A stretch of DNA of 64,000 nt from Eubacteriales bacterium (GTDB lineage: Bacteria; Bacillota; Clostridia; Oscillospirales; CAG-272), in the NCBI GenBank assembly GCA_045535375.1, contig JAZSLM010000007.1:15322-79321 (forward strand), in the 5' to 3' direction. Shown in pieces: positions 15,098 through 34,666 of the stretch; the stretch's first letter is position 1; each line of letters opens with the position of its first letter. Both the position numbers and the translations under genes were made by a program. The notes under the pieces were generated by a model. The model did not search any database, was not told the DNA's origin, and saw only the letters and a program-made list of their open reading frames with translations.

Positions 15098-15126
15098 TTG
15101 ACATTTCACAAAATATATGATATAAT
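15098..15126 (+). promoter_or_regulatory. Consensus SigA promoter driving the tRNA
   Basis: TTGACA (15098-15103), a 17-nt spacer with an extended TG, then TATAAT (15121-15126). It ends 18 nt before the tRNA. Confidence 0.8.
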
Positions 15127-15143
15127 ATTCAAGCATCAAACGT

Positions 15144-15218
15144 GGCCCATTGGTCAAGCGGTCAAGACGCTAGCCTCTCACGCTGGAAACTCGGGTTCGA
15201 TTCCCGGATGGGTCACCA
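15144..15218 (+). tRNA. tRNA-Glu (anticodon CUC), CCA encoded
   Basis: Hand-folded. Acceptor stem GGCCCAT/ATGGGTC. D-arm TGGTCAAGCGGTCAAGAC as in Firmicute tRNA-Glu. Anticodon stem CTAGC/GCTGG with loop CTCTCAC. T-arm TCGGG-TTCGATT-CCCGG. Ends in ACCA. Confidence 0.85.
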
Positions 15219-15650: not shown

Positions 15651-15676
15651 ATAGCCCCGCGCGAAGCGGGGCTGCA
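15651..15676 (-). terminator. Terminator of the minus-strand corrinoid operon
   Basis: agccccgc-gcgaa-gcggggct, followed on the minus strand by attgttttatttt. Confidence 0.75.
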
Positions 15677-15681
15677 TTCAT

Positions 15682-17187
15682 TTATACCTCCTCAAACATC
15701 ATCCCCATCATAAAGTACTCGGAGAAGACTTTGTTGGTCGATAGTTCGAGTGTTTCTGCTTTTTCCGCCAGACCGCGCGCTTTTTCGCTCATATTCGCAT
15801 TGAGCAGGAGCATCGACGCGCCTTCGAGGGCGGCGTTGCCGACGGTTTCCGAATTTTTTGCAAGAGAGGTCGGCAAGAGTCCGATCTTTGCGGCGCTTTT
15901 TTTATTGAGATAATTTCCGAATCCGCCTGCGATATAAAGGATCGGAACGTCCTCGGGTTCGATGCCCGCGCTTTCGGTGAGGGTAAGAAGTCCCGCGCAG
16001 ATCGCGCTTTTGGCAAGCTGGAGCATTCGGATGTCCTGCGCGGTGACAGAAACGCCGTCGCAAAGCGTGAAGGGATCTTCGTCAAGTGCGCCTGTCTCAT
16101 CGATAATTTCGCAGTCGAGCATGCAAGCCGCGGCATCGACGAGTCCGCTTCCGCAGATTCCGATCGCTTTGCCTCCGCCGATGACGTGCGGATAGGGCTC
16201 GCCGTTGAGCAGGACCACTTTATCGATCGCACCGGCGGCGCCTCGCATACCCATCGAGATACCAACGCCCTCGAAAGCGGGGCCGGCGGCAGTTGAACAG
16301 ACGGTAAGTTTTCCTCCGTGCCGGATCGCCATCTCGCCGTTCGTTCCGATATCGACGAGCATTGCCATTTCACCGTCGCAAAGCCCCGTGGAAATCAAGG
16401 CGCAAACGGTATCCGCGCCGACAAAAGCCGAGATACAAGGCGGCAGATAAACCGCGGTTTCGGGGGAAAGGCTCGAAAGATCGAGCGCCTTCGCCGTCAA
16501 CGTTTCGCCAAACAGCCTTTTTGCCTCGAAAGGTGCGTGCGAGAAAGGCTCAACCGATTCGACGGTCAGCAGCGAAAGCATTACGGTGTTGCCGGTAACG
16601 GCAACGGCATCAATATTCTTTGAATCAATTTTTGCTTTTGAAGCAAGCTCCACGAGGATTTCATCCAGAGCCTTACGGATCGAATCGGCAAGCTCCTCGT
16701 CTTTTCCGCCGAGGGCGGCTTCTATTCGCGAAATGACGTCGGCACCAAACTCCGACTGTGGATTGAGGCGCGAAGACGTGGCAAGAATATTACCTTTTGC
16801 ATCGTAAAGCCTTGCCGCCAGAGTGGTGGTGCCGATATCTATCGCGGCGCCGTACTGCACAAAGATCGGGTTCAGATCAAACCCGATCCGCTTTCCTGCG
16901 GTAACTATCTGCGCATCCGAATCGGATGCGACGTTCTTCACCTCGGCATCACCCTCGGCGAAGGTACAGCAAGAAAGACGTATGCCTGCGGCAAGCTCTT
17001 CGTTTGTCAAAAGTTCGCGCTCGGCGGCGCTCGGCGGGGAAAGTTTGCCCTTTGCCCACACCTTGCATTTTCCGCATTTGCCGTGGCCGCCGCAGGGCTT
17101 TTCGCCCGCGATGATCTCGGAAAGTGCGGCACCGGCGAGGGCTCTGCGCTCCTCGCCGTTTACGATAACTTTAATATAATCACTCAT
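15682..17187 (-). CDS. Corrinoid activation/regeneration protein (RACo/AcsV-like): N-terminal 2Fe-2S ferredoxin domain plus ASKHA ATPase domain
   Basis: 501 aa. The plant-type ferredoxin motif CGGHGKCGKCKV...LSCC is followed by a DUF4445/ASKHA-like body (DIGTTT...VDIGTNGE). Confidence 0.75.
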   Translation of the reverse strand: MSDYIKVIVNGEERRALAGAALSEIIAGEKPCGGHGKCGKCKVWAKGKLSPPSAAERELLTNEELAAGIRLSCCTFAEGDAEVKNVASDSDAQIVTAGKRIGFDLNPIFVQYGAAIDIGTTTLAARLYDAKGNILATSSRLNPQSEFGADVISRIEAALGGKDEELADSIRKALDEILVELASKAKIDSKNIDAVAVTGNTVMLSLLTVESVEPFSHAPFEAKRLFGETLTAKALDLSSLSPETAVYLPPCISAFVGADTVCALISTGLCDGEMAMLVDIGTNGEMAIRHGGKLTVCSTAAGPAFEGVGISMGMRGAAGAIDKVVLLNGEPYPHVIGGGKAIGICGSGLVDAAACMLDCEIIDETGALDEDPFTLCDGVSVTAQDIRMLQLAKSAICAGLLTLTESAGIEPEDVPILYIAGGFGNYLNKKSAAKIGLLPTSLAKNSETVGNAALEGASMLLLNANMSEKARGLAEKAETLELSTNKVFSEYFMMGMMFEEV

Positions 17188-17755
17188 TGTTCTTATAAAG
17201 CACCGCGCCGAAATAGGTGACGGTGTTCTGACCGTTGATGTATTTCATATCCGCCGCCGCGGCAAGGCGCGAAACGTTGAAGCCGTATGCCTCGAGCGAA
17301 GCCATTGCAAGATCGGGGTGGCGGCATGCTTCATTCGTCCGCTTGGCGCAGACCTTGCAGACACCGCATCCGCCCGCACCGAGGTGCAGGACTTTTTCTA
17401 TGCCCGCCTCACGGAAAACTCCGCGGAGCTTTTGCGAGATCGGATAAAATTTCTTTTTCGCCTCGACCATACCCTCGAAATCGAAGCTGTCCTCAAGACC
17501 TGACACGGTCTGGTACACCAGGGCGTAATCGTATTCCCTGACCTCTGCCATCAGCGCGTCGATATCGCCGACGTCGGGCGGGCACATATAGCATTTGCCG
17601 TACATTCCGCAGCTGTTCGAGGCACAGATATCGCGGAAAACGCGGTCAAGCTCGATCTTGTCGGTGGTTATGATGCTCGCCTTGAACGCGCCGAGCGCGA
17701 GCGTTTCTTTTATCAGCTTATCAAATTTTTCCATAATATTCTTCATATGCGGCAA
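17180..17755 (-). CDS. DUF2284-family Cys-rich metal-binding protein
   Basis: About 185-191 aa with NSCGMYGKCYMCPP and GGCGVCKVC motifs. The start is ambiguous (Met at 17755, 17746 or 17734). The gene overlaps both neighbours. Confidence 0.65.
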   Translation of the reverse strand: MPHMKNIMEKFDKLIKETLALGAFKASIITTDKIELDRVFRDICASNSCGMYGKCYMCPPDVGDIDALMAEVREYDYALVYQTVSGLEDSFDFEGMVEAKKKFYPISQKLRGVFREAGIEKVLHLGAGGCGVCKVCAKRTNEACRHPDLAMASLEAYGFNVSRLAAAADMKYINGQNTVTYFGAVLYKNNE

Positions 17756-18725
17756 AGAATGCCTTTATGTTCTCCCAAGGAGTCATGGGCGGGATATCGC
17801 ATCCCGACGAGAGAAGGAAATTGGGATATTTTGAGCATTTTTCGAGCAGAGCAAGAGTTGCTGCACGGACTTTTTCCGGAGTTCCCATACGGAGCACGCC
17901 CGCGGGGTCGATGTTTCCCATAACGAGAACGTCGGCGGGGATCTTCTTGATAATATCCTCTTCCATATCAACGGCGTTGCCGAAATGGTAAGCCGCCGCG
18001 CCCGTCGAGAGGATCGATTCGAGCATTTTGGGCACGTTGTCGCCGCAGTTATGGTAGATCACCGAGAAGGAATCATCCTGAACGGCATCAACGATCTTTT
18101 TGACGTAAGGCGAGGAAAATTCCTCCTCGAGCGTGGGAGAAAGCAGGCCCGAAACCGGCTCCGCCATCACGATTCCCGCGGCGCCCGCGGATTTATATGC
18201 CTTTGCATATTCGATCAAAAATTCGGTCGCCTTGTCAAGCACGACGTGCACCATATCGGGGTCGTCGTAGCAATCCATCATGATCTCGGTGACGTCGAGA
18301 AGTCTTGCCGCGAGCGAGAAGGGACCGATGATGCCCGCAAAAACGGGGCGGTCGCTGATCTTCGCGGCGGCTTTTTTCACCGCTTCAATGTAAATCCCCG
18401 TGCGTCCGCTTCCGACGGCGGGAACAGCGAGAGCCTGTGCCTCATCCTCATCGGTGACAAGTCTGCCCTTGACAGTCGGAACCTCATCCTCCGAGAAGCT
18501 GACGGTCGCTCCGAAAGCCTCGGCTTCGAGAGAGAGATCCATAAAGCTGACAGATGCCGAAGCATCGACCGCCTCTGCCACCGCGAGCATACCTTTTGCC
18601 TGCAGATCGCTGTCCGAGATAAGCTCGCTGACCTTTACACCGAGCAGGCTGACCGAGGGGAAGGAAAGCAGAGGCATCGGTTTTTTATTGTTTTCGGACT
18701 TAAGTCCTTCGATCCAGATTTTCAT
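17721..18725 (-). CDS. MtaA/CmuA-family (URO-D fold) methylcobamide methyltransferase
   Basis: 334 aa. It shows family-typical zinc-ligand motifs YHNCGD and SSGCDIPP, and overall MtaA-like sequence. Confidence 0.75.
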   Translation of the reverse strand: MKIWIEGLKSENNKKPMPLLSFPSVSLLGVKVSELISDSDLQAKGMLAVAEAVDASASVSFMDLSLEAEAFGATVSFSEDEVPTVKGRLVTDEDEAQALAVPAVGSGRTGIYIEAVKKAAAKISDRPVFAGIIGPFSLAARLLDVTEIMMDCYDDPDMVHVVLDKATEFLIEYAKAYKSAGAAGIVMAEPVSGLLSPTLEEEFSSPYVKKIVDAVQDDSFSVIYHNCGDNVPKMLESILSTGAAAYHFGNAVDMEEDIIKKIPADVLVMGNIDPAGVLRMGTPEKVRAATLALLEKCSKYPNFLLSSGCDIPPMTPWENIKAFFAAYEEYYGKI

Positions 18726-18726
18726 T

Positions 18727-19851
18727 TTACACCCTTATCTTCTTGATCTCTTCCGCATAATACTGCACGAGCTCGAACTTCGAACCGGGCATAAGTCTGT
18801 GGTCGGGGCAGGGGATGAAGCCGCCGAGGCCAAAGAGACGCTTGATGCGCTCAAGCTCTGCGTCGACCGCCGCTCGATCCTTGCGGAACGCGGTCTTATC
18901 CATACCGCCGACACCGAGGATCTCCTTGCCGTATTTCTTTCGCGCGGGCTCAAACTGATCGCCCCAAACACCGACCTCGATCGGGAACAGGACGTTTACG
19001 CCCGTCTCAATCCAAGTGGGAATGAGCTTTTCGGTCACTCCGTCGCAGTCGAGCGAAATGATGTCAATACCGTGCTTATGAAGCAGATCGTTTCGCTTCT
19101 TGTAGTGCTTGCGGCAGAGCTCGTCGAACACCTCGGGCGAGATCAGCGGGCTGCTCTTGAAGCAGATATCTTCCCAATAATGACCGAAATCAAATTTCAG
19201 CCCTGTTTTAAGTGCCGCTTCAACGCATTTATATTGCATCTCCGCATAGGCATCCACGATATCCGCAAAAAGCTCTTCATCCTCATCGTACATAAGGTAG
19301 CTCATACCCATAACGGTCGTAATATCACGGATATCACCCAACACGCTTCCGACCCTGAGTCCTATCGGGGCATCGTATTCGAGTTTTCCATTATACTGTC
19401 TGATAAGATCCTCGCTCTTTGCACGATCTTCCGAATATTGCATTTTGGGCAGGAAGAACTCCTCGAAGGCTTCTCTGTCCTTCAGAAGATAATCATCCTC
19501 GGAGGGGATCGAAACTATTCCTGGCTTGAATTTTTCAATCACGCCCTTGTCGGTGAGCACTCTTTGAGAGCCGTCGGGAAGAGTCTCGATGACCTTTCTT
19601 TGAAAAGCGGGATAAAGACCCAATTTGGGATACACGCAATTATGCCAGGTGCAATCCCAGCCGATGATCTTGTCAAGCTCCCCCTGTACCCTAGAACCGT
19701 CGTGGACGGCGCCCTTTGCCATCTCCATAGAAATATGTCCCTGCTCTGCCCATTCGACGAGCAGTTCTCCCCAATAGCCGAAATGCACGGCGGGGATGCG
19801 GTCGGTGTCCTTATAATGAAGGATATTCATACAACGTTCGCGTGTGGTCAT
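18727..19851 (-). CDS. Uroporphyrinogen-decarboxylase-family protein, putative substrate:corrinoid methyltransferase
   Basis: 374 aa. The N-terminus MTTRERCMNILHYKDTDRIPAVHFGYW is typical of the bacterial URO-D-like methyltransferase group. It lies in the operon with the corrinoid protein. Confidence 0.6.
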   Translation of the reverse strand: MTTRERCMNILHYKDTDRIPAVHFGYWGELLVEWAEQGHISMEMAKGAVHDGSRVQGELDKIIGWDCTWHNCVYPKLGLYPAFQRKVIETLPDGSQRVLTDKGVIEKFKPGIVSIPSEDDYLLKDREAFEEFFLPKMQYSEDRAKSEDLIRQYNGKLEYDAPIGLRVGSVLGDIRDITTVMGMSYLMYDEDEELFADIVDAYAEMQYKCVEAALKTGLKFDFGHYWEDICFKSSPLISPEVFDELCRKHYKKRNDLLHKHGIDIISLDCDGVTEKLIPTWIETGVNVLFPIEVGVWGDQFEPARKKYGKEILGVGGMDKTAFRKDRAAVDAELERIKRLFGLGGFIPCPDHRLMPGSKFELVQYYAEEIKKIRV

Positions 19852-19865
19852 ATATTTTATCCCTT

Positions 19866-21101
19866 TCAGATTCTATCATAATATTTATCAAGCACGTCGC
19901 TGACCGTTTGTGCCCAGACTATCAGATTTTCGGGTCTGCACGAAACCGTACTTATGTCCTTGAGCACGATATCGTAAGGGCATCCGTATTTGATACAAGC
20001 CTTCACGGTCTCTTCGGTCTCTCGTCTGATAAGGTCGGGGTCGGTGCTGATCGCAACGTGCGCGGGGTTCGGCTTTCTTGAAAGCACGTAGTCGCCCCTG
20101 ATCTGCTCGGCGCATCTTTCGACGTTTGCCCAAGGGGAACAGCCGATCTTGCGCAGATTGGGTATCTTTTTGATCACGCTGATCTTGTCGTCAAGGGGTT
20201 CGCAGCAGCCATAGTAAGTATAGGCAAACCTATCCGCCACGGCAAGGAGATACTGCACCTCGAACTCATCGAACATCTCGGGCGATATAACGCCGAATGT
20301 CTGCGCCATACTGCGGCACCATGTTGCCTTCAGGCCCGTATCTGCCAGACCCGACACCGCACCGGGTGTGCAATGGAGCGACGGAGGCAAAGAAACGTCG
20401 AGATTCTTTTCCACAAAATCAAGCTCGGCGTGTGCCGCACAGACGAATTTTTTGATGATCTCGTGCAAATATTCGGGGCGGTCGTACATATCCATAAGGA
20501 TCGGCTCGACTCCGCGCAGGCGGGTGATCTTATCCCACGGGGCGAAATAAAAGTAGCCGTAACCGTAAAGCTGCACGGGAATCGTATCCCCAAGCAGATC
20601 GGTGTAAAATTCCATTCTTGCGGCATCCTTTTCGGGACTGAGCGTGAGCACGGGATCGTGCATCGCCTCAAGCGCGGACTCATCCTCAAGGATATCCTCA
20701 AATTCGCGAGATACGATATTGTTGATGCTATCGGTCCGCTTCATATCCGCGGTGACGGGATCGAGTCCTATTCCGGTTGACTCCACGGCACGCTTGACAC
20801 GAAATACGGGTTCATAGAGATTATCCGCCTTGAAGTGCTTTATGTAATAGATAGCCTTTCTGAAATAGAGCTCGACATTGCGCGCGCCCTTGTGCTCGCA
20901 TACGAGGGTAAGCTCGCCGTCCATATCCATCTGATACCACGGGATCTCGTCGAGAATGACCGGCGGACGGCCGGGCTTCAGATCGTTGGTATCGCGGAAT
21001 CTGCGAACCATTTTCTCCTGCTTCTCCGTGCAGACCAAAGACATATATATCTTTGCGAGCTCTCTTACGACGGATTTATCCTTTTCGGTCATTACAATCA
21101 C
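19866..21101 (-). CDS. URO-D-like protein, putative second substrate:corrinoid methyltransferase
   Basis: 411 aa. The C-terminal half (YYGCCEPLDDKISVIKKIPNLRKIGCSPWANV) resembles the URO-D/MtaA TIM barrel. It is adjacent to the corrinoid protein. Confidence 0.45.
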   Translation of the reverse strand: MIVMTEKDKSVVRELAKIYMSLVCTEKQEKMVRRFRDTNDLKPGRPPVILDEIPWYQMDMDGELTLVCEHKGARNVELYFRKAIYYIKHFKADNLYEPVFRVKRAVESTGIGLDPVTADMKRTDSINNIVSREFEDILEDESALEAMHDPVLTLSPEKDAARMEFYTDLLGDTIPVQLYGYGYFYFAPWDKITRLRGVEPILMDMYDRPEYLHEIIKKFVCAAHAELDFVEKNLDVSLPPSLHCTPGAVSGLADTGLKATWCRSMAQTFGVISPEMFDEFEVQYLLAVADRFAYTYYGCCEPLDDKISVIKKIPNLRKIGCSPWANVERCAEQIRGDYVLSRKPNPAHVAISTDPDLIRRETEETVKACIKYGCPYDIVLKDISTVSCRPENLIVWAQTVSDVLDKYYDRI

Positions 21102-21126
21102 CCTCCGAATAACGGCTCGCGGATCT

Positions 21127-21762
21127 TTATTCCTTGCAGAAAGCTACTGCGACGTCTGCGGCGCTTGCGGCGTCAACGGTGTATGCGTCCGCGCCGATCT
21201 TCTTGCAGTATTCCTCGCTTACGGGAGCGCCGCCAACCATAATTTTTACTTTATCGCGAATACCCGCAGCCTCTGCCGCTTTTACTACCTCTTCCATAAC
21301 TCCCATAGTGGTGGTGAGAAGCGCAGAACAGCAGATCACACGGCAATTCTGCTCGATAGCGGTCTGAACGAACGCATCGGGAGAAACGTCGGTGCCAAGG
21401 TCAACGACCTCGAGGCCCTTGCCCTCCATCATCATCTTTACAAGATTCTTGCCGATGTCGTGAAGGTCGCCCTGAACGGTACCAATGCAGACCTTTCCGG
21501 TCGCCTTGACGCCCTCAGCGGCAAGAAGGGGCTTGATTATCTGAACGCCCATGTTCATTGCGCGCGCGGCAACGAGGACCTCGGGAACGTAAATTTCATT
21601 GTTCTTGAACTTTTCGCCGACGATATTCATACCTGCAAGCAGACCTTCGTTAAGGATCTGCTCGGGGCTGACGCCCTCCTCGACCGCCTGCGCGACGAGT
21701 TCCTTTACTATTTTCGATTTACCCTTTTGGAGATTTTCACAAATTTCAACTAAAATGCTCAT
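21127..21762 (-). CDS. Corrinoid (cobalamin-binding) protein, MtaC/MtbC-like
   Basis: 211 aa with a B12-binding_2 helical cap and a Rossmann domain. It carries the DxHxxG motif (GDLHDIG), SALLTTT and MVGGAP. Confidence 0.85.
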   Translation of the reverse strand: MSILVEICENLQKGKSKIVKELVAQAVEEGVSPEQILNEGLLAGMNIVGEKFKNNEIYVPEVLVAARAMNMGVQIIKPLLAAEGVKATGKVCIGTVQGDLHDIGKNLVKMMMEGKGLEVVDLGTDVSPDAFVQTAIEQNCRVICCSALLTTTMGVMEEVVKAAEAAGIRDKVKIMVGGAPVSEEYCKKIGADAYTVDAASAADVAVAFCKE

Positions 21763-21860
21763 AGTTTGCTCCTTATATAATTTATTGTATTAATTATATA
21801 CTAAATTGCACAAAAATTCAATAGAAAAAGAGAAAAAATATATCCGATTCAACATTTCAC

Positions 21861-23756: not shown

Positions 23757-24704
23757 ATGAAGGATTTTAAGGTAGTCAAGGGCGTTTACCCTACGATGAT
23801 AACGCCCTACAAGAACGGCGAGATCGACGAGGATGCAGTGCGCGAGCTCGTCAGATTCTATTGGAAAAGCGGATGCGACGGCATTTTCGCCGCTTGCCAG
23901 TCGAGCGAGATAATGTTCCTCTCGATCGAGGAGCGTGTTCTGCTCGTACGCCTTGTTGTTGACGAGGCAAAGAAGCTCGCCGAAGCCGACAAGAGCCGCG
24001 CGCCTCTGATGATCGTTGCATCGGGACATATTTCGGACAGCCTTGACGATCAGGCAGAAGAGCTTTGCCGAGTTGCCGCGGAGGGACCCGATGCGGTTAT
24101 TCTCATCTCGAACAGACTTGATATCGCAAATACTACCGACGAGGCTTGGATAGCAGACGCTGAAAAGCTTATCGCGAAGCTTCCTCCCGATATGCCCCTC
24201 GGTATTTATGAATGCCCGAAGCCTTATAAGCGTTTGCTCACCGATGCGATGCTCCGTTGGTGCATCGAAACAGAGCGTTTCTACTTCATCAAGGACACCT
24301 GTTGCGACGCCGATCTGATCGCGCACAGACTCGATATCTGCCGCGGCTCGCGACTTGAGATCTTCAACGCCAATGCTCAGACACTTCTGCCCACTCTCAA
24401 AAACGGTTGCTCGGGCTATTGCGGAGTCATGGCGAACATCCACCCCGAGCTTTACGTCAGACTCTGGCGCGCCGATTGGGAAAGCCGCGAGGCTTCTCTG
24501 TTGCAGGACTACCTCGGTCTTGCCGCGACAGCCGAGTCGCTGACCTATCCTTGCTGCGCGAAGGATTACCTCAACCGTTACCGCGGAATCAAGATGGACA
24601 CCTACGCAAGAAGTGCCGACGAGGCGAATTACACGCCCTATCAGCGCGGATGTATAGATCAATTTGCAGAGCTTAGTCATTATATTACAAAAGGAGAATT
24701 CTGA
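23757..24704 (+). CDS. DapA/NanA (DHDPS)-family aldolase/lyase
   Basis: 315 aa with class I aldolase family features, including the Schiff-base-type FIKDT block. It is divergent in the GxTGE region. Confidence 0.65.
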
Positions 24705-26512
24705 TGAGAAACAGAACTATCGGACAGTACCCCGCGATCGGCATCCGTCCCGTTATCGACGGCAGACGCGGCGCGCTTAAAGTGCGCGAATCTCTTGAAG
24801 ATCAGACTATGGGTATGGCGGAACGCGCCGCAGCCCTCTTCCGCGAAAATCTCCGCTACGCCGACGGAAGCCCCGTCCGCGTTGTTATAGCCGACACCAC
24901 TATCGGCCGTGTCGGTGAAGCCGCCGCTTGCGCAGATAAATTCAAGCGCGAGGGCGTTGCCGTCACCTTGACCGTCACCCCCTGCTGGTGCTACGGCTCG
25001 GAAACCATGGACACAGACCCGAACACCATCAAGGGCGTTTAGGGATTCAACGGCACCGAGCGTCCCGGCGCGGTCTATCTCGCATCCGTCCTCGCCGCGC
25101 ACGCACAAAAAGGCTTGCCCGCATTCGGAATTTACGGTCACGACGTTCAGGATGCCGATGACACCACCATTCCCGATGACGTGCGCGCGAAACTTCTCCG
25201 CTTCGGACGCGCCGCTATTGCCGCCGCTTCGATGGAGGGACGCTCCTACCTGCAGATCGGCGCGATGTGCATGGGTATCGCGGGCTCGCTGATCGATCCC
25301 GATTTCTTCGAGGACTATCTCGGTATGCGCGTTGAATCGGTCGACGAGGTAGAGATCCTGCGCCGAATCGACAAGGGCATTTACGATCACGAGCTTTACG
25401 AAAAAGCCCTCGCTTGGACACGCGCAAACTGCCCCGAGGGACTCGACAAGAATCCCGAATTCATCCGCAAATCCGATGAGGAAAAGGCGGCGGACTGGGA
25501 ATTCACCGTCAAGACCGCACTCATAATTCAGGATCTGATGTCGGGCAACAACAATCTCCCCGAAGGATGCGAGGAAGAGATGGTCGGTCACAACGCGATC
25601 GCCGCGGGCTTCCAGGGTCAGCGTCAGTGGACCGATGCATACCCCAACGCCGACTTCCCCGAGGCTATACTCAACAGCTCCTTCGACTGGAACGGCGCAC
25701 GCGAACCCTTCGTGCTTGCCACCGAAAACGATACTCTCAACGGCATCTCGATGCTTCTGATGAAGCTTCTGACCAACCGCGCACAGCTTTTTGCCGACGT
25801 CCGCACCTTCTGGTCGGCTGACGCTCTGCGCCGCGCGGCGAATTACGAGCTTGAAGGTCACGCTCTTGAGGCGGGAGGCTTCATCCATCTCATCAACTCC
25901 GGAGCGGGTGCACTCGACTATTGCGGAAAATCGACCGACGAGGACGGAAAAGCAACCGTCAAGCCTTGGTACGACGTTACCGAGGACGATATTTCCGCTA
26001 TGACAAAGGCGACCGAATGGTGCGCCGCCGACAACGGCTACTTCCGCGGCGGAGGATATTCCTCGCGCTTCGTCACCGAGACCGAAATGCCCTGCACGAT
26101 GATGCGACTCAACATCGTCAAGGGGCTCGGACCCGTGGTTCAGCTCGTTGAAGGCTGGACGGTCAAGCTTCCCGAAGAGGTCACCGACATCCTCTGGAAA
26201 CGTACCGACTACACCTGGCCCTGCACCTGGTTTGCTCCGCGCTGTGACGGAGTTGATGGCTCGCCCTTCGCGACCGCATACGACGTTATGAACAACTGGG
26301 GCGCAAATCACGGCGCGATCAGCTACGGCCACATCGGCGCGGACATCATCACCCTCTGCTCGATGCTTCGCATACCCGTCTGTATGCACAACGTGCCCGC
26401 ATCCGACGTCTTCCGCCCCGCATCCTGGAATGCGTTCGGAATGGATAAGGAAGGTCAGGACTACCGCGCCTGCCATGCCTACGGCCCCCGCTTCGGCAAA
26501 GGAAAAAGATAA
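24704..26512 (+). pseudogene. fucI: L-fucose isomerase interrupted by a single in-frame TAG (25040-25042)
   Basis: It appears collinear with my recollection of E. coli FucI over the whole length: [72 protein letters not shown]. The TAG sits where I recall Trp in ...IWGFNGTE..., a one-base change from TGG. Confidence 0.85.
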
Positions 26513-26640: not shown

Positions 26641-27933
26641 ATGACACTCAAAAAAATCATCTCCGTATTCCTCATCATCTGCACTCTTCTCTCCTTTTCC
26701 GCCTGCAAGCCGGAGGACGCCGATCTGACCACGGCTCCCGTGCTTGAAACCGATGCGCCCGAGGCGGAAAAGCTTGTCTTTATCGATAACGGCAAGACCG
26801 ATTTCAAAACCATTCGCTCGGAAAACGCCGAGGGTTATTACCTTGACACCGCGCGCATCATCTACCGCAAGCTGAAGGACGAATATTCCTCCGATTTCAA
26901 GCAAGGTGAGGACTGGATAAATCCCCTCGAACCCGATCCTGCCAAGGCACACGAGGTCCTTCTTTTTGACACTGCCCGTGCGGAATCGGTTGCCGCAATG
27001 GCAGATCTGACCTCCCCGGGCTACATCATCCGGGTCACCGACTGCAAGATCGTCATCGTCGGCTCGGGGATCTCGCAGTGCAACGCGGCGCTGAATGAAT
27101 TTTTCTATAAGATCATCCCCGAGAACACCGCGGACGGCGTGACCGCTCTTCCCGTTGGTCTTGAGGTCAAAAAAGAACTTGCAAACGAAGCCTTCGACTT
27201 TTCCGCCGCGCTTTCTGCCGGCAAGAAGATCGGCGCGCACATCAGCGAGGTCTTCAAATATTCGGGGAGCGACGGTTTCACCTCCTCCCAGGGCGTAGCG
27301 AGCGACGGAAAATACGTTTATATCGCCACTAAAAAGAAGGATGGCGACACAGAAACCGACAAGATCGTCAAGGTCGATGCCGCATCGTGGGAAATAGTCA
27401 AGATCAGTGAGGAGCTTCCGCTCGATCACGCAAACGACATGACCTACGACCCCGTGCGCGGTCAGCTTGCCGTCGTCAACATGGTTGGCGGAGTTATATC
27501 CTTTGTTGATACCGAAACCCTGACCGTTATAAAAGCGCCGAGCCACCCCTTCTTCACAAGTGCGATCGAGTATATCGAGGAGGACGGTCAGTATCTTCTC
27601 CGCGCCGGAAACGGCTTCATTTACACCGACGGGGATCTGAATCAGCTTTCTTACCACGAAGTTAAAGGCTACCCCGCCGAGCTCGACAAATACACGGGCC
27701 AGGGCATGTACGCCGACACCAAGTACCTTTACATCCCCCGCAGCCCCACGGCGGGACTTACCGATAATATCATCATCATCTGCGATCGCGGAGGCGAATA
27801 TCTGACGACCGTAACCCTCGCAACCAAAATGGAATCCGAAACCATATTTACCGTGGGCGAAAAATTCTACGTCAGCTTCAACAAGAGCTGCAACGTGATC
27901 TGCGAAATGGAATTTTACGAGGTTTTTGAATAA
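26641..27933 (+). CDS. Lipoprotein, unknown function (N-terminal alpha/beta module shared with 5253 and 12843; propeller-like C-terminal part)
   Basis: Lipobox LLSFSAC, 430 aa. Confidence 0.7.
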   Translation: MTLKKIISVFLIICTLLSFSACKPEDADLTTAPVLETDAPEAEKLVFIDNGKTDFKTIRSENAEGYYLDTARIIYRKLKDEYSSDFKQGEDWINPLEPDPAKAHEVLLFDTARAESVAAMADLTSPGYIIRVTDCKIVIVGSGISQCNAALNEFFYKIIPENTADGVTALPVGLEVKKELANEAFDFSAALSAGKKIGAHISEVFKYSGSDGFTSSQGVASDGKYVYIATKKKDGDTETDKIVKVDAASWEIVKISEELPLDHANDMTYDPVRGQLAVVNMVGGVISFVDTETLTVIKAPSHPFFTSAIEYIEEDGQYLLRAGNGFIYTDGDLNQLSYHEVKGYPAELDKYTGQGMYADTKYLYIPRSPTAGLTDNIIIICDRGGEYLTTVTLATKMESETIFTVGEKFYVSFNKSCNVICEMEFYEVFE

Positions 27934-30701: not shown

Positions 30702-30766
30702 AAATTATAATAATCTGTTACCTGCGCGGGAGACTTTTCGTCTTATAGGATGAAGGAGGAATGACG

Positions 30767-31324
30767 ATGGACGACAAAAGAATAATTGAACTCTTTTTTG
30801 CCCGCGACGAGCGCGCCCTTCGCGAGGTAACGAAAAAGTACGGCAAACTTTGCATGCATATTGCCGAAAACTTCCTTTCCAGCCGCGAGGACCGCGAGGA
30901 ATGTCAGAGCGACGTTCTGCTCGAGCTGTGGAATCGCATTCCGCCGGAAGAACCCAACGATCTGCGGGCATACGTCGCCGCGATAATCCGGAGTCGCGCG
31001 ATAGATAAGCTCCGCCGTGATTCCGCGGGAAAGCGCGGCGGAAACGTGCTCATCGTCAGCGACGAACTGATTTCCGACCTCGCTGACGGCACCTCTCTTG
31101 CGGAAGAATACGAATCGACACGCGCGGGCGAGGTCATAAACAAGTTCCTCGACTCGCAACAAAAGTGTGAACGCGCAGTCTTCATCATGCGCTATTACCT
31201 AATGGAGAGCATCAAGGACATCTCCGCCCGCACGGGATTTTCCGAGGGTAAGATCAAGATGATGCTGATGAGAATGCGCCGCAGACTTGAAGAAGATTTA
31301 AGAAAGGAAGGAATACTGCTTTGA
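30767..31324 (+). CDS. ECF-type sigma-70-family factor (module 1)
   Basis: About 185 aa with only region 2 (REDREECQSDVLLELWNRIPPEEP) and region 4 (ERAVFIMRYY...ISARTGFSEGKIKMMLMRMRRRL). The start is MDDKRII, with GAAGGAGG 7 nt upstream; the track start at 30761 is too close to the SD. Confidence 0.8.
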   Translation: MDDKRIIELFFARDERALREVTKKYGKLCMHIAENFLSSREDREECQSDVLLELWNRIPPEEPNDLRAYVAAIIRSRAIDKLRRDSAGKRGGNVLIVSDELISDLADGTSLAEEYESTRAGEVINKFLDSQQKCERAVFIMRYYLMESIKDISARTGFSEGKIKMMLMRMRRRLEEDLRKEGILL

Positions 31325-32556
31325 AAAACAAAAATGAAAAGCTGATGTCGGCTTTCGACCACATCGACTCGCGCTACATAGGCGAGGCGATGGAATATTA
31401 CGGTGAAAAGTCCGCCAAGAAGCCCGTTTTCGCCAAAAGAATTAACCGCTACGTCGCCGTAGCATCGGCAGCCGCCGCGTGCCTTTTGATCATCGCGCTC
31501 GCGCTCCCCTCTTTGCTGATCGAAAGAGGCGCGGACAGCTACACCCCCACCGACGTCCGCGCGGAGGACACTGATACAAAAGTTCAGACCCCGCCCGAGC
31601 ATGACGGCAGTAAAGGACTTCTTTACGAGATCAACGAGGACGGCAAGAGTGCATCCTTCGTTGGCTTCGGTACTTGCACCGAGGAAACTGTCGTGATTGC
31701 AAGCACATATGACGGTCTGCCGGTTACGAGAATGTATAATAAAGGATATTGGGAAGCTGAAACTATTCCTGTCGACCACGATTTCAACAGTAAGTATCTC
31801 AAACGTCTTGTTATTTCGGATACCGTACAGACCGTTGATTTTGAATGTATCCGCCAGTGCCCGAATATCGAAAGCATATATTTTGGCTCAAGAGTGAATC
31901 ATATTGGAGCGCTTTTCTTCGGTCCCGGCTATGGGGAAAACTTTTCCTCGGTAGAGGTTTCTCCCGACAACAAGTATTTTTCCGATAAAGGAAATTGTAT
32001 TGTGGACCTGAGAACGGGGGCTCTCGTCTTGGCAACTCCCACGACCGTTATCCCCAATGACGGAAGTGTTAAGATCATAGGTAATTCGGCTTTTGGCTCC
32101 GCAAGACGGCATCTTACCTCTATCGTCATCCCGGAGGGCGTGAGGATGATCGACCACGGCGCGTTCCGCGAGTGCCAGAAGCTTGAGAACATTGTGCTTC
32201 CAAATAGTCTTGAGATCATTGAATCCTGTGCGTTTGATGGTTGCCACAGCCTTAAGACTCTTGAACTCGGCGTAGGGCTGAAGGTGTATAATCAAGATGT
32301 CTTTTTCACCTGTATCCCAAAAACACAAATAATCTATAAGGGTACCGTGGCGCAGTGGGAGTCGATAGCGAAGAACGATGACTCTCCGGAACTTGTTGAC
32401 GGCACCCCACAAGACCCTATTGTCAGTACGGTATACTGTACCGACGGTGAAACTTACAGCAACGCAGGTAATCTGGAACAGTATAGATGGTGGTTTATGC
32501 CGGAGTACAGCACATATTGGGAGATCCAATATTTAACACCGGCAGAAACCGATTGA
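31321..32556 (+). CDS. Single-pass membrane protein: short cytoplasmic N-domain (putative anti-sigma), TM segment, one extracellular BspA-type LRR cassette (module 1)
   Basis: A TTG start overlaps the sigma stop by 4 nt. The N-terminus MKNKNEKLMSAFDHIDSRYIGEAMEYY is homologous to the other four partners. The TM segment is YVAVASAAAACLLIIALALPSLLI. LRR units follow (IPxxVxxIGxxAFxxC). Confidence 0.75.
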   Translation: MKNKNEKLMSAFDHIDSRYIGEAMEYYGEKSAKKPVFAKRINRYVAVASAAAACLLIIALALPSLLIERGADSYTPTDVRAEDTDTKVQTPPEHDGSKGLLYEINEDGKSASFVGFGTCTEETVVIASTYDGLPVTRMYNKGYWEAETIPVDHDFNSKYLKRLVISDTVQTVDFECIRQCPNIESIYFGSRVNHIGALFFGPGYGENFSSVEVSPDNKYFSDKGNCIVDLRTGALVLATPTTVIPNDGSVKIIGNSAFGSARRHLTSIVIPEGVRMIDHGAFRECQKLENIVLPNSLEIIESCAFDGCHSLKTLELGVGLKVYNQDVFFTCIPKTQIIYKGTVAQWESIAKNDDSPELVDGTPQDPIVSTVYCTDGETYSNAGNLEQYRWWFMPEYSTYWEIQYLTPAETD

Positions 32557-32609: not shown

Positions 32610-34451
32610 TTATCTTCTCATCGCCCTTATCGCGTTGAGCACGGCGATGACCATGACTCCGACGTCGGCGAAGATTCCGAGCCACATGTTGGCGAGTCCT
32701 GCGGCGACGAGCGCGAGGCAGCCGAATTTGACGGCGAGCGAGAAGATTATGTTCTGTTTAACGATGGACAGGCATTTGCGCGAGATTGCGACGGCCTTGG
32801 CAATATCGCGCGGGTCGTCCTTCATCAGCACGACGTCCGCCGCCTCGATCGCGGCATCCGAGCCCATCGCGCCCATTGCGATTCCGACGTCGGCGCGCGC
32901 AAGCACGGGGGCGTCGTTGATTCCGTCGCCGACAAAGGCGACCTTTTTGCCCTCCGAAAGAAGCGCCTCGACCTCCGTGATCTTATCCGCGGGCAGGAGC
33001 GCGGCGCGGTATTCGGCAATTCCGAGCTTTTCGCTGACCGCTTTTGCGATGGCCTCGCCGTCGCCCGTCAGCATCACGCATTTTTCGATACCGATCTTGT
33101 CAAGTTCCGCGATCGCCTCGCGCGATTCCTCCTTGACGGCATCGGCAACAAGGATGATTCCCGCAAATTCACCGCCGACGGCAACGTAAACCGCCGCCCG
33201 GGCGCCCGTATACTCGGGTGCGTTCGGTATCAGCTTGCGGTTTCCGACGGCGACTTCGATCCCGTCTACCTCGCAGGTGACACCGAGACCGCCGATCTCG
33301 CGAATATCCTTCACACGCGCGCGGTCGATCTCGCCACCGTAAGCCGAAACTAGGCTTTTTGCGATCGGATGCGAGGAGGATGCCTCGGCATGCGCGGCAA
33401 ATCCGAGCAGTTCTTCTTTTTCTATCTTATTTTCGATGATCTCGGTGACCTCAAAAGTACCGCGGGTCAGCGTGCCGGTCTTATCAAGGGCGACAATTTT
33501 GACCTCGGCAAGCGCCTCGAGGTAGTTAGAACCTTTGACAAGTATTCCCTCGCGGCTCGCGCCGCCGATCCCCGCAAAAAACGTCAGCGGAATGCTGATA
33601 ACAAGTGCGCAGGGACAGCTGATAACGAGGAATGTCAGCGCGCGGTAGAGCCAGACCGACCACTCGCCTAGTCCGCAAAGGGGCGGAATGACGGCAAGAG
33701 CGAGCGCGGAAGCGCATACTGCGGGAGTATAAACACGGGCAAATTTTGAGATAAATTTTTCCGATCTCGATTTGCGCGAGCTTGCGTTTTCAACGAGCTC
33801 GAGAATGCGCGAAACCGTCGATTCCGGGAATTCCTTTTCGGTACGGATTCGCAAAAGTCCCGTAAGACTCACGCAGCCGCTGATGACGGAATCTCCCGCC
33901 GCGATCTCGCGCGGCACGCTCTCGCCCGTCAGCGCCGAGGTGTCAAGCGTGCTTTCGCCCTCGATCACCACGCCGTCGATCGGGATCCTCTCACCGGGGC
34001 GGACAATTATGATCTCTCCGAGCGCAACTTCGGCGGGGTCGACTTCGATCAGTTCCCCGTCACGTTCAACGTTCGCCGAATCGGGGCGGATATCCATCAG
34101 CTCAGCAATATTTTTGCGGCTCTTACCTACCGCGATCGACTGAAAGAGCTCGCCCGTCTGGTAAAAGAGCATAACGGCAACCGCCTCGTTGTAGTCGCCG
34201 CTTTTCGTATAGACAGCAAGCGCGAACGCGCCGACGGTGGCTATTGCCATGAGGAAATTTTCATCGAGGAACTGACGGTTCCAAAGTCCGCACAGAGCCT
34301 CCCAAAGGATGTCGTAACCGATCAGAAGATAGAGCGCGGTGAAAAGCGCAAGTCGGAGAATGCCTTCGATCGGCAAAATATTGAGCAAAAGCGTGCCCGC
34401 CGCGGCGGTGATTATCCGCGCGAGCATTATCTTGTGCCGTTTTTTCATCAC
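32610..34451 (-). CDS. P1B-type heavy-metal-translocating ATPase (Cd/Zn/Co-type) lacking a fused metal-binding domain
   Basis: 613 aa with CPC (SCPCALVISIP), DKTGTLT, SSHPIA and GDGINDAP. Confidence 0.88.
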   Translation of the reverse strand: MMKKRHKIMLARIITAAAGTLLLNILPIEGILRLALFTALYLLIGYDILWEALCGLWNRQFLDENFLMAIATVGAFALAVYTKSGDYNEAVAVMLFYQTGELFQSIAVGKSRKNIAELMDIRPDSANVERDGELIEVDPAEVALGEIIIVRPGERIPIDGVVIEGESTLDTSALTGESVPREIAAGDSVISGCVSLTGLLRIRTEKEFPESTVSRILELVENASSRKSRSEKFISKFARVYTPAVCASALALAVIPPLCGLGEWSVWLYRALTFLVISCPCALVISIPLTFFAGIGGASREGILVKGSNYLEALAEVKIVALDKTGTLTRGTFEVTEIIENKIEKEELLGFAAHAEASSSHPIAKSLVSAYGGEIDRARVKDIREIGGLGVTCEVDGIEVAVGNRKLIPNAPEYTGARAAVYVAVGGEFAGIILVADAVKEESREAIAELDKIGIEKCVMLTGDGEAIAKAVSEKLGIAEYRAALLPADKITEVEALLSEGKKVAFVGDGINDAPVLARADVGIAMGAMGSDAAIEAADVVLMKDDPRDIAKAVAISRKCLSIVKQNIIFSLAVKFGCLALVAAGLANMWLGIFADVGVMVIAVLNAIRAMRR

Positions 34452-34666
34452 ATATCAATAGAAAAATGGCGCTCGACCTTGCGGCAGGTCTTGAGGACAT
34501 CTTTAAGTACCTTTGCCTCATCCGCGCCGTCGGCGAAAACGACGGTCATTTTCTGCGTCATAAAGTTGATAGCAAGGTCGGCAACTCCCGCGACCTTCTT
34601 TGCGGCGTCCTCCGCCTTCGCGGCGCAATGCGCGCAGTCAACCTCGATTTTGTAGATCTTCTTCAT
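34448..34666 (-). CDS. Stand-alone heavy-metal-associated (HMA) domain protein
   Basis: 72 aa, MKKIYKIEVDCAHCAAKAE..., with a CxxC motif. Its stop overlaps the ATPase start by 4 nt. The track start at 34756 lacks support. Confidence 0.75.
   Translation of the reverse strand: MKKIYKIEVDCAHCAAKAEDAAKKVAGVADLAINFMTQKMTVVFADGADEAKVLKDVLKTCRKVERHFSIDM

What the first reader, a model, noticed from the sequence alone, without database searches (positions are those of the whole stretch)
15682..21762. Six-gene corrinoid methyl-transfer operon with three URO-D/MtaA-family methyltransferases, DUF2284 and a RACo activase; substrate unknown
- Gene order on the minus strand: corrinoid protein (DxHxxG), a 411-aa URO-D-like protein, a 374-aa URO-D-like protein, an MtaA/CmuA-like protein with HxC...C zinc ligands, the Cys-rich DUF2284, and a 2Fe-2S/ASKHA reductive activase.
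- The genes are tightly packed or overlapping.
- This is the architecture of three-component O-, S- or N-demethylase systems (MT-I, corrinoid protein, MT-II, activating enzyme).
- No MttB-superfamily member and no pterin-binding MeTr-type MT-II is present. Both the methyl donor(s) and the acceptor are therefore open.
- Two distinct candidate MT-I genes suggest two substrates feeding one corrinoid protein.
- The operon diverges from a sialic-acid/fucose/sulfatase locus, which raises the possibility of a host- or diet-derived methylated substrate.
Basis: partly seen in the sequence, partly recalled or inferred. Interest (0 to 1): 0.55.

Follow-up and report, generated by a model that had tools for sequence, protein, structure and literature searches.

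The report
Cobalamin methyl-transfer operon, unknown substrate
A six-gene operon from an uncultured gut Clostridia bacterium encodes a vitamin-B12-based relay for moving methyl groups; it contains two unrecognised enzyme families that, in related genomes, sit inside sugar-degrading gene clusters, so it may be an oxygen-free way of removing methyl groups from plant or host sugars.

Summary
Window 15682-21762 (minus strand) holds one tight operon with a promoter-like site and a terminator hairpin. It encodes a corrinoid protein (DxHxxG), a 408/411-aa protein ("U411"), a 374-aa protein ("U374"), an MtaA-like zinc methyltransferase (His225-Cys227-Cys309), DUF2284 (8 Cys) and a RACo activase.

U411 and U374 have almost no sequence similarity to known families. 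No NCBIfam family and no solved-structure sequence matched either one. AlphaFold models of both match uroporphyrinogen decarboxylase and MtaA folds.

The cassette recurs in 22 of 84 non-redundant related loci. Its fixed core is corrinoid protein, MtaA-like protein, DUF2284 and RACo. The set of divergent URO-D-fold genes around that core varies.

In a termite Treponema, U411 homologues lie next to a corrinoid protein and a pterin-binding methyltransferase, inside a monosaccharide-transporter operon. That marks U411 as the substrate-side enzyme (MT-I). Other homologues sit among GH78, GH43, GH95 and GH3 genes, and one is fused to a carbohydrate-binding module.

Best reading: an O-demethylase-type relay acting on glycan-derived methyl ethers, with a thiol-type acceptor. 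Substrate and acceptor are inferred, not shown. Methoxylated plant aromatics are the main rival. I rate it a new variant of a known kind.

The parts
21793..21821 (-). Promoter-like site (TTGAAT-17-TATAAT) upstream of the corrinoid protein gene. An AAGGAG ribosome-binding site lies 8 nt before the ATG at 21762.
   Evidence: This is a consensus match only. No cobalamin riboswitch was found (Rfam).
21127..21762 (-). Corrinoid (cobamide-binding) methyl-carrier protein, 211 aa
   Evidence: Pfam B12-binding_2 and B12-binding. Motifs D99xH101xxG104, S146xL and G180G. Closest solved sequences: 1y80 at 3.7e-55, MttC 7xcn, and the D. hafniense O-demethylase corrinoid protein 4jgi at 4e-35. It scores below every NCBIfam equivalog cut-off.
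19866..21101 (-). U411: divergent URO-D-fold protein, putative substrate:corrinoid methyltransferase (MT-I). The probable true start is ATG 21092 (408 aa).
   Evidence: Pfam URO-D is sub-threshold at 16.4 bits; no NCBIfam family and no solved-structure sequence hit. AlphaFold2 pLDDT 87.7; Foldseek best hits are UROD and MtaA at probability 1.0. hhalign against the MtaA-like family gives 94%, with Y297-G-C299-C300 aligned to H-N-C-G. Homologues lie next to a corrinoid protein in 22 of 84 loci, and next to a pterin-binding MT-II in L076.
18727..19851 (-). U374: second divergent URO-D-fold protein, putative second MT-I
   Evidence: Pfam URO-D 26.7 bits over residues 187-371. AlphaFold2 pLDDT 73.9; Foldseek best hits are UROD and MtaA. 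Invariant C269, C348, D350 and H351 lie near the canonical metal-site positions. It is present or absent independently of U411 across cassettes.
17721..18725 (-). MtaA-like zinc methyltransferase, putative methyl-corrinoid:thiol methyltransferase (MT-II)
   Evidence: Pfam URO-D 212 bits. TIGR01463 MtaA/CmuA scores 150.6, below its 235.4 cut-off. M. mazei MtaA 4ay7 at 2e-23, with H225, C227 and C309 aligned to its HxC...C motif. These residues are invariant in 14 orthologues.
17180..17755 (-). DUF2284 Cys-rich protein, probably an Fe-S or metal-binding accessory of the activase. The start is uncertain because the ORF overlaps the upstream gene by 35 nt.
   Evidence: Pfam PF10050 151 bits. Motifs C44x4C49x5C55x2C58P and C130x2C133x2C136x7C144, with 7 Cys invariant. 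Weak profile hit to the Fe-S-binding N-terminus of CODH, E=0.01. It lies beside the MtaA-like and/or RACo gene in most cassettes.
15682..17187 (-). RACo-type ATP-dependent reductive activase of corrinoid proteins (2Fe-2S plus ASKHA domains)
   Evidence: Pfam Fer2, Raco_middle and RACo_C_ter. C. hydrogenoformans RACo 3zyy at 1e-63. Cys32/38/41/73 and two DIGT motifs.
15653..15673 (-). Intrinsic-terminator-like hairpin (8 pairs, 7 G-C) followed by ATTGTTTTATTTT, 9 nt after the RACo stop codon

Best explanation
The operon encodes a corrinoid-dependent methyl-group relay of the O-demethylase type.

1. U411 and U374 are two separate, highly divergent URO-D-fold enzymes. Each takes a methyl group from its own substrate and puts it on the Co(I) cobamide of the 211-aa corrinoid protein (MT-I step). 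This step is inferred.
2. The MtaA-like enzyme has a His225-Cys227-Cys309 zinc site. It passes the methyl from CH3-Co(III) to a soft nucleophile, most likely a low-molecular-weight thiol such as homocysteine or sulfide (MT-II step). This is inferred from the motif.
3. RACo uses ATP and its 2Fe-2S cluster to re-reduce corrinoid protein that has been oxidised to Co(II). The Cys-rich DUF2284 probably acts as its Fe-S electron partner. The domains are shown; the roles are inferred.

The substrates are most likely methyl ethers released during glycan breakdown. O-methylated sugars or oligosaccharides from plant or host polysaccharides are the leading candidates, with zinc or acid activation of the ether oxygen and SN2 attack by Co(I). 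The substrate class is the weakest link. I put it at about 0.45 on its own. The relay architecture stands at about 0.9, and the MT-I role of U411 at about 0.7.
For: - Domains and motifs of all six proteins are as described.
- The six genes form one transcription unit.
- Both unknown proteins have URO-D/MtaA folds. U411 is homologous to the MtaA-like family by profile comparison.
- The cassette is conserved in 22 of 84 non-redundant loci. The corrinoid protein, MtaA-like, DUF2284 and RACo core is constant, and the set of URO-D-fold paralogues (U411, U374/U356 and others) varies.
- L076 (termite Treponema) reads: Rbs-type sugar ABC transporter, U411 homologue, xylose-isomerase-like TIM barrel, Pterin_bind/MtrH-like protein, corrinoid protein, U411-like protein, GFO/IDH/MocA. 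All are on one strand. With the MT-II slot filled there, U411 must be the MT-I, and the operon is a sugar operon.
- L044 reads FGGY, GH78, U411, GH43-CBM6, GH43, GH95, GH3.
- L030 has GH95 and a cellulase-like gene inside the cassette.
- P0370 is an NPCBM carbohydrate-binding module fused to a U411 domain.
- Recurrent neighbours are AraC (19 loci), GFO/IDH/MocA (12), GH43 (7), GH95, GH3, FGGY and sulfatase (4 each), and GH78 and GH36 (3 each).
- In UroD-superfamily methyltransferases, a His-Cys-Cys site marks S/Se-directed enzymes. O-directed enzymes replace those ligands (PMC10418091). U411 has Tyr in place of His, and U374 has Leu.
- No pterin-binding MT-II is present in the window.
Against: - There is no biochemistry for any member of either family.
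- 62 of 84 U411-homologue loci have no corrinoid protein within 10 kb, and I could not check whether those genomes carry the core elsewhere.
- The neighbour counts have no genomic baseline, and these gut Clostridia are rich in glycan genes anyway.
- The window's own flanks are not conserved in the closest relative, L085.
- U374's link to the MtaA family is weak by sequence (hhalign probability 2.7%), and its model is only of moderate confidence.
- The homologues that give the key evidence (L076, L044, P0370) are only 30-51% identical to the window's U411, so their substrates may differ.
- GH78, GH3 and GH43 contexts also fit methoxylated flavonoid glycosides or arabinoxylan-bound ferulate.
- Cleaving aliphatic methyl ethers with Co(I) has no enzymatic precedent apart from methanol (MtaB).
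- The one case where a homocysteine S-methyltransferase domain replaces the MtaA-like gene (L030) does not generalise.
Confidence: 0.5

Rival explanations
1. The relay is the same, but the substrates are methoxylated plant aromatics, as in classical O-demethylases. Candidates are ferulate or sinapate released from arabinoxylan or pectin, or methoxylated flavonoid aglycones freed by rhamnosidases and glucosidases.
For: - All characterised UroD-superfamily ether-cleaving MT-Is (OdmB, VdmB, MtvB, MtoB) act on aryl methyl ethers (PMC13222342).
- The habitats are herbivore guts, termite guts and digesters, which are rich in lignocellulose phenolics.
- GH78, GH3, GH43-CBM6 and GFO/IDH/MocA neighbours also occur in flavonoid-glycoside and arabinoxylan metabolism (the link itself is my own knowledge).
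Against: - There is no detectable sequence similarity to CdmB, a member of the aryl O-demethylase clade.
- The monosaccharide-type ABC transporter and sugar-isomerase-like gene in L076, the FGGY kinases, and the carbohydrate-binding-module fusion point to sugars.
- No aromatic-catabolism genes were seen among the recurrent neighbours.
Confidence: 0.25
2. The direction of roles is reversed, or the system handles methyl-sulfur or methyl-selenium compounds as proposed for type 1 mlp clusters. The MtaA-like enzyme would demethylate a methyl-thiol or methyl-selenide donor, and U411 and U374 would pass the methyl to unknown acceptors. Alternatively, the donor could be methanol or a methyl ester from pectin.
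For: - His-Cys-Cys MtaA-like proteins with a corrinoid protein and RACE but no tetrahydrofolate methyltransferase define the mlp clusters, and ClMlp2 methylates selenide in vitro (PMC10418091).
- DUF2284 domains occur in arsenite-methyltransferase and metal-binding selenoproteins (weak NCBIfam hits; PMC13188914).
- Pectin-type glycoside hydrolases near some cassettes would fit methanol or methyl esters.
Against: - Only one SCMT-like (coenzyme M methyltransferase-like) protein is present, not the Mlp2 plus Mlp3 pair.
- No sulfur or selenium metabolism genes were seen among the neighbours.
- In L076 the acceptor-side enzyme is clearly the pterin-binding protein, which leaves the U411 homologues on the donor side.
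Confidence: 0.12
3. U411 and/or U374 are not methyltransferases. They would be URO-D-fold or TIM-barrel enzymes of sugar metabolism (for example decarboxylases or isomerases) that merely share operons with a small corrinoid system made of the MtaA-like protein, the corrinoid protein and RACo.
For: - Most U411 homologues lie without a corrinoid protein within 10 kb.
- The URO-D fold also supports cofactor-free decarboxylation.
- The Foldseek list includes MetE and sugar isomerases at lower rank.
Against: - The order 'corrinoid protein then U411' recurs across lineages that are 40-87% identical, including Treponema.
- In L007 and L088 each URO-D-fold gene is preceded by its own corrinoid-protein gene.
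- Without U411 or U374 the window's system would have no donor-side enzyme.
- The motif DMYDRPEYLH and the canonical first Cys are shared with the MtaA-like family.
Confidence: 0.08

Closest known systems
Bacterial and archaeal three-component O-demethylase and dehalogenase systems: OdmABCD and Vdm (Acetobacterium dehalogenans), MtvABC (Moorella), MtoABCD (Methermicoccus), CdmBCA (PMC13222342, PMC8630106)
   Same: - A corrinoid protein with B12-binding_2 and B12-binding domains.
- A RACo-type ATP-dependent activase.
- URO-D-superfamily proteins next to the corrinoid protein as candidate MT-Is.
- Several MT-I paralogues per organism.
   Different: - U411 and U374 show no sequence-level similarity to CdmB, even with family profiles.
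- The MT-II is an MtaA-like His-Cys-Cys zinc enzyme, not a pterin-binding MtrH/MeTr-type protein.
- A DUF2284 gene is part of the core.
- The hosts look like saccharolytic gut Clostridia rather than known acetogens, and the family's neighbours are glycan genes.
Type 1 mlp gene clusters (Kountz and Balskus, bioRxiv 2023, PMC10418091)
   Same: - An MtaA-like His-Cys-Cys protein, a corrinoid protein and a bacterial RACE/RACo.
- No H4folate methyltransferase in the cluster.
- Found in anaerobic Firmicutes, including gut organisms.
   Different: - Type 1 clusters are defined by having both Mlp2 and Mlp3, each about 30% identical to coenzyme M methyltransferases. Here only one such protein exists, and the other two URO-D-fold proteins lack the His ligand.
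- Neither of those two matches MtaA in a phmmer search of PDB sequences.
- The neighbours are glycan genes, not sulfur or selenium genes.
Methanogen methylcobamide:CoM methyltransferase MtaA (PDB 4ay7) within MtaABC
   Same: The 334-aa protein aligns over 300 residues with conserved HxC...C zinc ligands.
   Different: - It scores far below the NCBIfam MtaA and MtbA equivalog cut-offs (126 against 400, and 119 against 600).
- No MtaB is present.
- Coenzyme M is not expected in Clostridia (my own knowledge).
Cytochrome P450 6-O-methyl-D-galactose demethylase of marine bacteria (PMC6292453). This would be a functional analogue only if the sugar hypothesis is right.
   Same: It would remove methyl ethers that block sugar catabolism, and it is encoded within polysaccharide-utilisation loci.
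   Different: The P450 is oxygen-dependent and releases formaldehyde. The system here would be anaerobic and cobamide-dependent, and would conserve the methyl group on a carrier.

Membership tests
Three-component corrinoid O-demethylase-type system (MT-I / corrinoid protein / MT-II / activase) | Corrinoid protein with a B12-binding_2 cap, a Rossmann B12-binding domain and the DxHxxG motif | tested here: met
Three-component corrinoid O-demethylase-type system (MT-I / corrinoid protein / MT-II / activase) | ATP-dependent reductive activase (RACo: 2Fe-2S plus ASKHA domains) | tested here: met
   (3zyy at 1e-63).
Three-component corrinoid O-demethylase-type system (MT-I / corrinoid protein / MT-II / activase) | UroD-superfamily MT-I related to OdmB, VdmB, MtvB, MtoB and CdmB | tested here: inconclusive
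   The fold is URO-D/MtaA-like. U411 is homologous to the MtaA-like family by profile comparison. Neither sequence nor profile hits CdmB 9rui at E<=10. Sequences of OdmB, VdmB, MtvB and MtoB were not available for testing.
Three-component corrinoid O-demethylase-type system (MT-I / corrinoid protein / MT-II / activase) | Pterin-binding (MtrH/MeTr-type) MT-II that transfers the methyl to H4folate or H4MPT | tested here: not met
   None in the operon or in the 46 window ORFs scanned. One is present beside U411 homologues only in the Treponema locus L076.
Three-component corrinoid O-demethylase-type system (MT-I / corrinoid protein / MT-II / activase) | Demonstrated substrate-dependent methylation of Co(I) corrinoid protein | not testable with these tools
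   Requires anaerobic enzyme assays.
Type 1 mlp gene cluster (PMC10418091) | Encodes at least an Mlp2 and an Mlp3, both SCMT-like (coenzyme M methyltransferase-like) with His-Cys-Cys sites | tested here: not met
   There is one SCMT-like protein. U411 has Y-G-C-C and U374 has L-D-C-D at the HxC position. Neither matches MtaA in a phmmer search of PDB sequences. Placement in the authors' similarity-network clusters could not be tested.
Type 1 mlp gene cluster (PMC10418091) | Corrinoid protein plus bacterial RACE, with no H4folate methylase in the cluster | tested here: met
Type 1 mlp gene cluster (PMC10418091) | Non-core genes belong to sulfur or selenium metabolism | tested here: not met
   Neighbours are glycan or sugar genes and regulators.
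MtaA/MtbA methylcobamide:CoM methyltransferase (NCBIfam equivalogs) | Score above the equivalog or subfamily cut-off | tested here: not met
   NF040654 scores 126 against a cut-off of 400, NF041608 scores 119 against 600, and TIGR01463 scores 150.6 against 235.4.
MtaA/MtbA methylcobamide:CoM methyltransferase (NCBIfam equivalogs) | HxC...C zinc ligands | tested here: met
   H225, C227 and C309 align to 4ay7 and are invariant in 14 orthologues.
Uroporphyrinogen decarboxylase HemE | TIGR01464 equivalog score | tested here: not met
   The MtaA-like protein scores 77 against a cut-off of 303. U411 and U374 have no hit.

The most novel reading that the evidence does not exclude
U411 and U374 found two new families of cobamide-dependent methyltransferases that remove methyl ethers from sugars or oligosaccharides under anoxic conditions. 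Candidate substrates are 2-O-methyl-fucose or 2-O-methyl-xylose from rhamnogalacturonan II, 4-O-methyl-glucuronate from xylan, and 6-O-methyl-galactose. The methyl group would be handed to a thiol rather than to folate. This would be the oxygen-free counterpart of the P450 sugar demethylase, widespread in ruminant and termite guts. In many relatives the operon would be controlled by an AraC regulator that itself binds a cobamide.
Probability: 0.35. Interest if true: 0.85.

Novelty: new variant of a known kind. Interest (0 to 1): 0.62.

Why it matters
Methyl ethers on sugars block normal catabolism. The only known enzymatic removal is an oxygen-dependent P450 (PMC6292453). A 2025 paper states that anaerobic demethylation of 6-O-methyl-galactose 'has not been elucidated yet' (PMC12316285).

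This operon and its relatives give concrete, clonable candidates for that missing step. Every member that carries a source name is annotated 'hypothetical protein'.

Even if the substrate turns out to be aromatic, the finding adds two unrecognised MT-I families. It also shows a bacterial system in which an MtaA-like zinc enzyme, rather than a folate methyltransferase, takes the methyl group. That raises the question of where methyl groups go in non-acetogenic gut fermenters. The possible sinks (methionine, methanethiol, other thiols) bear on rumen methane and sulfur-volatile budgets.

Tried and rejected
1. Sequence and profile searches of U411 and U374 against all PDB sequences found nothing useful, including no hit to CdmB.
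2. NCBIfam found no family for U411 or U374.
3. Rfam found no cobalamin riboswitch or other RNA in the operon.
4. I tested whether the window's sialic-acid/fucose/sulfatase flank is a conserved partner. L005 shares the BNR-like and DHDPS genes. The closest relative, L085, keeps only the sulfatase and a 435-aa unknown protein. Other cassettes have quite different flanks. I rejected it as a specific partnership.
5. I tested whether the stand-alone homocysteine S-methyltransferase domain that replaces the MtaA-like gene in L030 is a regular partner of such cassettes. Three further contexts at 67-80% identity showed no corrinoid genes. It is not general, so the 'acceptor is homocysteine' argument stays weak.
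6. From memory I had considered MtoA a URO-D-type folate methyltransferase. The paper shows it is MtrH-like (PMC8630106), so that idea was dropped.
7. Looking up the source record of the window by exact protein failed. I know only that the identical proteins are on an 81,336-bp NCBI contig.
8. The context of the carbohydrate-binding-module fusion P0370 was uninformative because the contig is only 6.6 kb.
9. Literature searches for cobamide-dependent sugar demethylation found none.

Full report
OBSERVATION.
- The 211-aa protein has B12-binding_2 and B12-binding domains and the motif D99-L-H-D-I-G104.
- The 334-aa protein scores 212 bits on URO-D. It aligns over 300 residues with M. mazei MtaA (4ay7, 2e-23), and H225-x-C227 and C309 fall on the MtaA zinc ligands.
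- The 191-aa protein is DUF2284 (151 bits). It carries two four-Cys motifs.
- The 501-aa protein has Fer2, Raco_middle and RACo_C_ter domains and matches C. hydrogenoformans RACo (3zyy, 1e-63).
- The gaps between consecutive genes are 25, 14, 1, -35 and -8 nt.
- A TTGAAT-17-TATAAT site and an AAGGAG ribosome-binding site precede the first gene. A G+C-rich hairpin with a T-run follows the last gene.
- No riboswitch was found.
- The 411-aa ORF probably starts at ATG 21092 and gives 408 aa, as in the public annotation of the identical protein.

THE TWO UNKNOWN PROTEINS. U411 reaches only 16.4 bits on Pfam URO-D, below the cut-off. U374 reaches 26.7 bits over its C-terminal half.
- Neither matches any NCBIfam family.
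- Neither matches any PDB sequence meaningfully, even as 29-sequence family profiles. That includes CdmB (9rui), the only solved member of the aryl-O-demethylase/haloalkane MT-I clade (PMC13222342).
- AlphaFold2 models have pLDDT 87.7 (U411) and 73.9 (U374). Both give uroporphyrinogen decarboxylases and MtaA as best Foldseek matches, at probability 1.0, TM about 0.5 and 11-16% identity.
- A profile-profile comparison links the U411 family to the cassette's MtaA-like family at 94% probability. The motifs DMYDRPEYLH and DCYDDPDMVH align. U411's Y297-G-C299-C300 falls on MtaA's H-N-C-G, so the first zinc Cys is kept and the His is lost.
- U374 compared with the MtaA-like family is not significant (probability 2.7%). 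The alignment still puts L-D-C269-D on H-N-C-G, and the invariant C348, D350 and H351 fall near the second Cys.
- According to PMC10418091, His-Cys-Cys marks S/Se-directed UroD-family methyltransferases, and O-directed ones replace those ligands.

DISTRIBUTION. U411 has more than 5,291 relatives and U374 more than 3,820 in the 90%-clustered collection. Every one that carries a source name is called 'hypothetical protein'.
- An exhaustive search finds 1,529 clusters at 50% identity, of which 275 have E<=1e-30.
- In a collection with one genome per species, at least 591 stretches encode a relative. All of the best 80 are metagenome-assembled genomes. They come from ruminant and other animal guts (Clostridia, Oscillospiraceae, Christensenella, Ruminococcus), from anaerobic digesters, and from termite-gut Treponema.

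THE CASSETTE. I mapped the six window proteins onto 92 loci. 22 of 84 non-redundant loci carry corrinoid genes.
- The constant part is a corrinoid protein, the MtaA-like gene, DUF2284 and RACo.
- In many loci the corrinoid protein is fused to an AraC-type HTH, giving a protein of 510-556 aa.
- The variable part is a set of divergent URO-D-fold genes: U411 alone (L014, L025), U374 or U356 alone (L088, L091), both together, or up to five paralogues (L001).
- In L007 and L088 each such gene is preceded by its own corrinoid-protein gene.
- This is the pattern expected of interchangeable substrate-specific MT-I modules around a shared carrier, MT-II and activase core.

WHICH SIDE OF THE RELAY. The termite Treponema locus L076 reads, on one strand: ABC ATPase, BPD_transp_2 permease, Peripla_BP_4 sugar-binding protein, U411 homologue, xylose-isomerase-like TIM barrel, a 263-aa Pterin_bind/MtrH-like protein, a 209-aa corrinoid protein, a 358-aa U411-like protein, and GFO/IDH/MocA.
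- Here the acceptor-side enzyme is the classical pterin-binding one, so the U411 homologues must be the donor-side enzymes.
- By analogy, the MtaA-like protein fills the MT-II slot in the Clostridia cassette. Its His-Cys-Cys site points to a thiol or selenol acceptor.
- In L030 the MtaA-like gene is absent and a stand-alone homocysteine S-methyltransferase domain lies in the cassette. Related stand-alone domains elsewhere are not next to corrinoid genes. This is a single case and weak evidence for homocysteine.

WHICH SUBSTRATE. Nothing here shows it directly. The leads are as follows.
- L076 is a monosaccharide-uptake operon.
- L044 reads PA14, FGGY, GH78, U411, GH43-CBM6, GH43, GH95, GH3.
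- L030 has GH95 and a cellulase-like gene inside the cassette.
- Cassette flanks include BNR_4, GFO/IDH/MocA, a trehalase-like glycoside hydrolase, a GH106-like protein, a rhamnogalacturonase-fold protein, a glycyl-radical enzyme, GH43 and sulfatase.
- P0370 fuses an NPCBM carbohydrate-binding module to a U411 domain.
- Among the 84 loci, the recurrent neighbour clusters are AraC (19), GFO/IDH/MocA (12), GH43 (7), GH95, GH3, FGGY and sulfatase (4 each), and GH78, GH36 and glycyl-radical enzymes (3 each). 23 loci have at least one recurrent glycoside hydrolase or sulfatase.
- No baseline was computed, and these genomes are rich in such genes.
- The window's own neighbours are a BNR-like protein, YhcH, a DHDPS-family protein, fucose isomerase and a sulfatase. 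L005 shares some of them, but the closest relative L085 does not.
- The same glycoside hydrolases would also serve methoxylated flavonoid glycosides or ferulate-bearing arabinoxylan, so aromatic substrates remain a serious rival.

DUF2284. Seven Cys are invariant, in the patterns C-x4-C-x8-C-P and C-x2-C-x2-C-x7-C. The second motif weakly resembles the Fe-S-binding N-terminus of CODH (E=0.01). The gene stays next to RACo even where the MtaA-like gene is missing (L030). I infer that it is an Fe-S electron partner for reductive activation. This is untested.

COMPARISON WITH KNOWN SYSTEMS. The system works like the Odm, Mtv, Mto and Cdm relays. It differs in three ways: its MT-I candidates belong to unrecognised families, its MT-II is MtaA-like rather than pterin-binding, and DUF2284 is part of the core.
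- It resembles the type 1 mlp clusters (PMC10418091) in having an MtaA-like protein, a corrinoid protein and RACE without a folate methyltransferase.
- It fails their defining feature, which is an Mlp2 plus Mlp3 pair that are both SCMT-like (coenzyme M methyltransferase-like) with His-Cys-Cys sites. It also lacks their sulfur and selenium neighbours.
- No paper in the held library describes cobamide-dependent sugar demethylation. PMC12316285 states that the anaerobic route is unknown.

VERDICT. This is a new variant of a known kind of system. Substrate and acceptor remain unproven. My estimates are about 0.9 for the relay architecture, about 0.7 for U411 as MT-I, about 0.5 for a thiol-type acceptor, and about 0.45 for glycan-derived methyl ethers as substrates.

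Noticed in passing
window 24704-26512 (+): The L-fucose isomerase gene is interrupted by a single in-frame stop at 25040-25042. The reading frame continues unchanged on both sides (Fucose_iso_N1, N2 and C domains). It could be a pseudogene, a sequencing error or a recoded codon.
   Followed up: partly
L001:6368-7960, L004:6286-7929, L088:6680-8212, L091:7082-8638, L007:11513-13051 and others: In many related cassettes the corrinoid protein is fused to an AraC-type HTH, sometimes with a cupin-like N-terminus, giving 510-556 aa. The closest genome, L007, has both a free corrinoid protein before U411 and a fused one before U374. A cobamide-binding transcription factor inside a methyltransferase operon might sense the methylation or redox state of its cofactor. 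The window lacks it.
   Followed up: partly
L076:6331-16082 (termite-gut Treponema MAG Po218_bin21): A complete classical system (U411 homologue, pterin-binding MT-II, corrinoid protein, second U411-like gene) is embedded in an Rbs-type monosaccharide ABC-transporter operon together with a xylose-isomerase-like protein and GFO/IDH/MocA genes.
   Followed up: yes
P0370 (595 aa; L092:3313-5100): An NPCBM/NEW2 carbohydrate-binding module (74 bits) is fused N-terminally to a U411-family domain. No signal peptide is apparent, because the module starts at residue 9.
   Followed up: partly
L030:7382-8227, and relatives L093, L096, L099: Stand-alone 281-aa homocysteine S-methyltransferase domains (PF02574 only) are common in these Clostridia MAGs, with 1,601 hits. 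They are sometimes tandemly duplicated or lie next to LuxS and Pfs. Their methyl donor is not obvious. Only in L030 do they sit inside a corrinoid cassette.
   Followed up: partly
window 15098-15218 (+): A tRNA-Glu (anticodon CTC) is preceded by a perfect sigma-70 consensus promoter (TTGACA-17-TATAAT with an upstream TG). It lies immediately downstream of the operon's terminator and converges on it.
   Followed up: no
window 30761-32556, 37802-43239, 56600-58566 (possibly also 52649-55743): There are repeated pairs of an ECF-type sigma factor gene followed by a BspA-type leucine-rich-repeat (LRR_5) protein gene. One of the LRR proteins is 1,627 aa.
   Followed up: no
window 26641-27933 (+) and L085:6648-7955: A 430-435-aa protein with no Pfam match lies next to the sulfatase in both the window and its closest relative. 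In the relative it directly abuts the cassette.
   Followed up: no
window 32610-35465: A P-type ATPase gene lies next to a 216-aa regulator that combines an ArsR-type HTH_5 with an AraC-type HTH_18. The same pair appears in L099.
   Followed up: no
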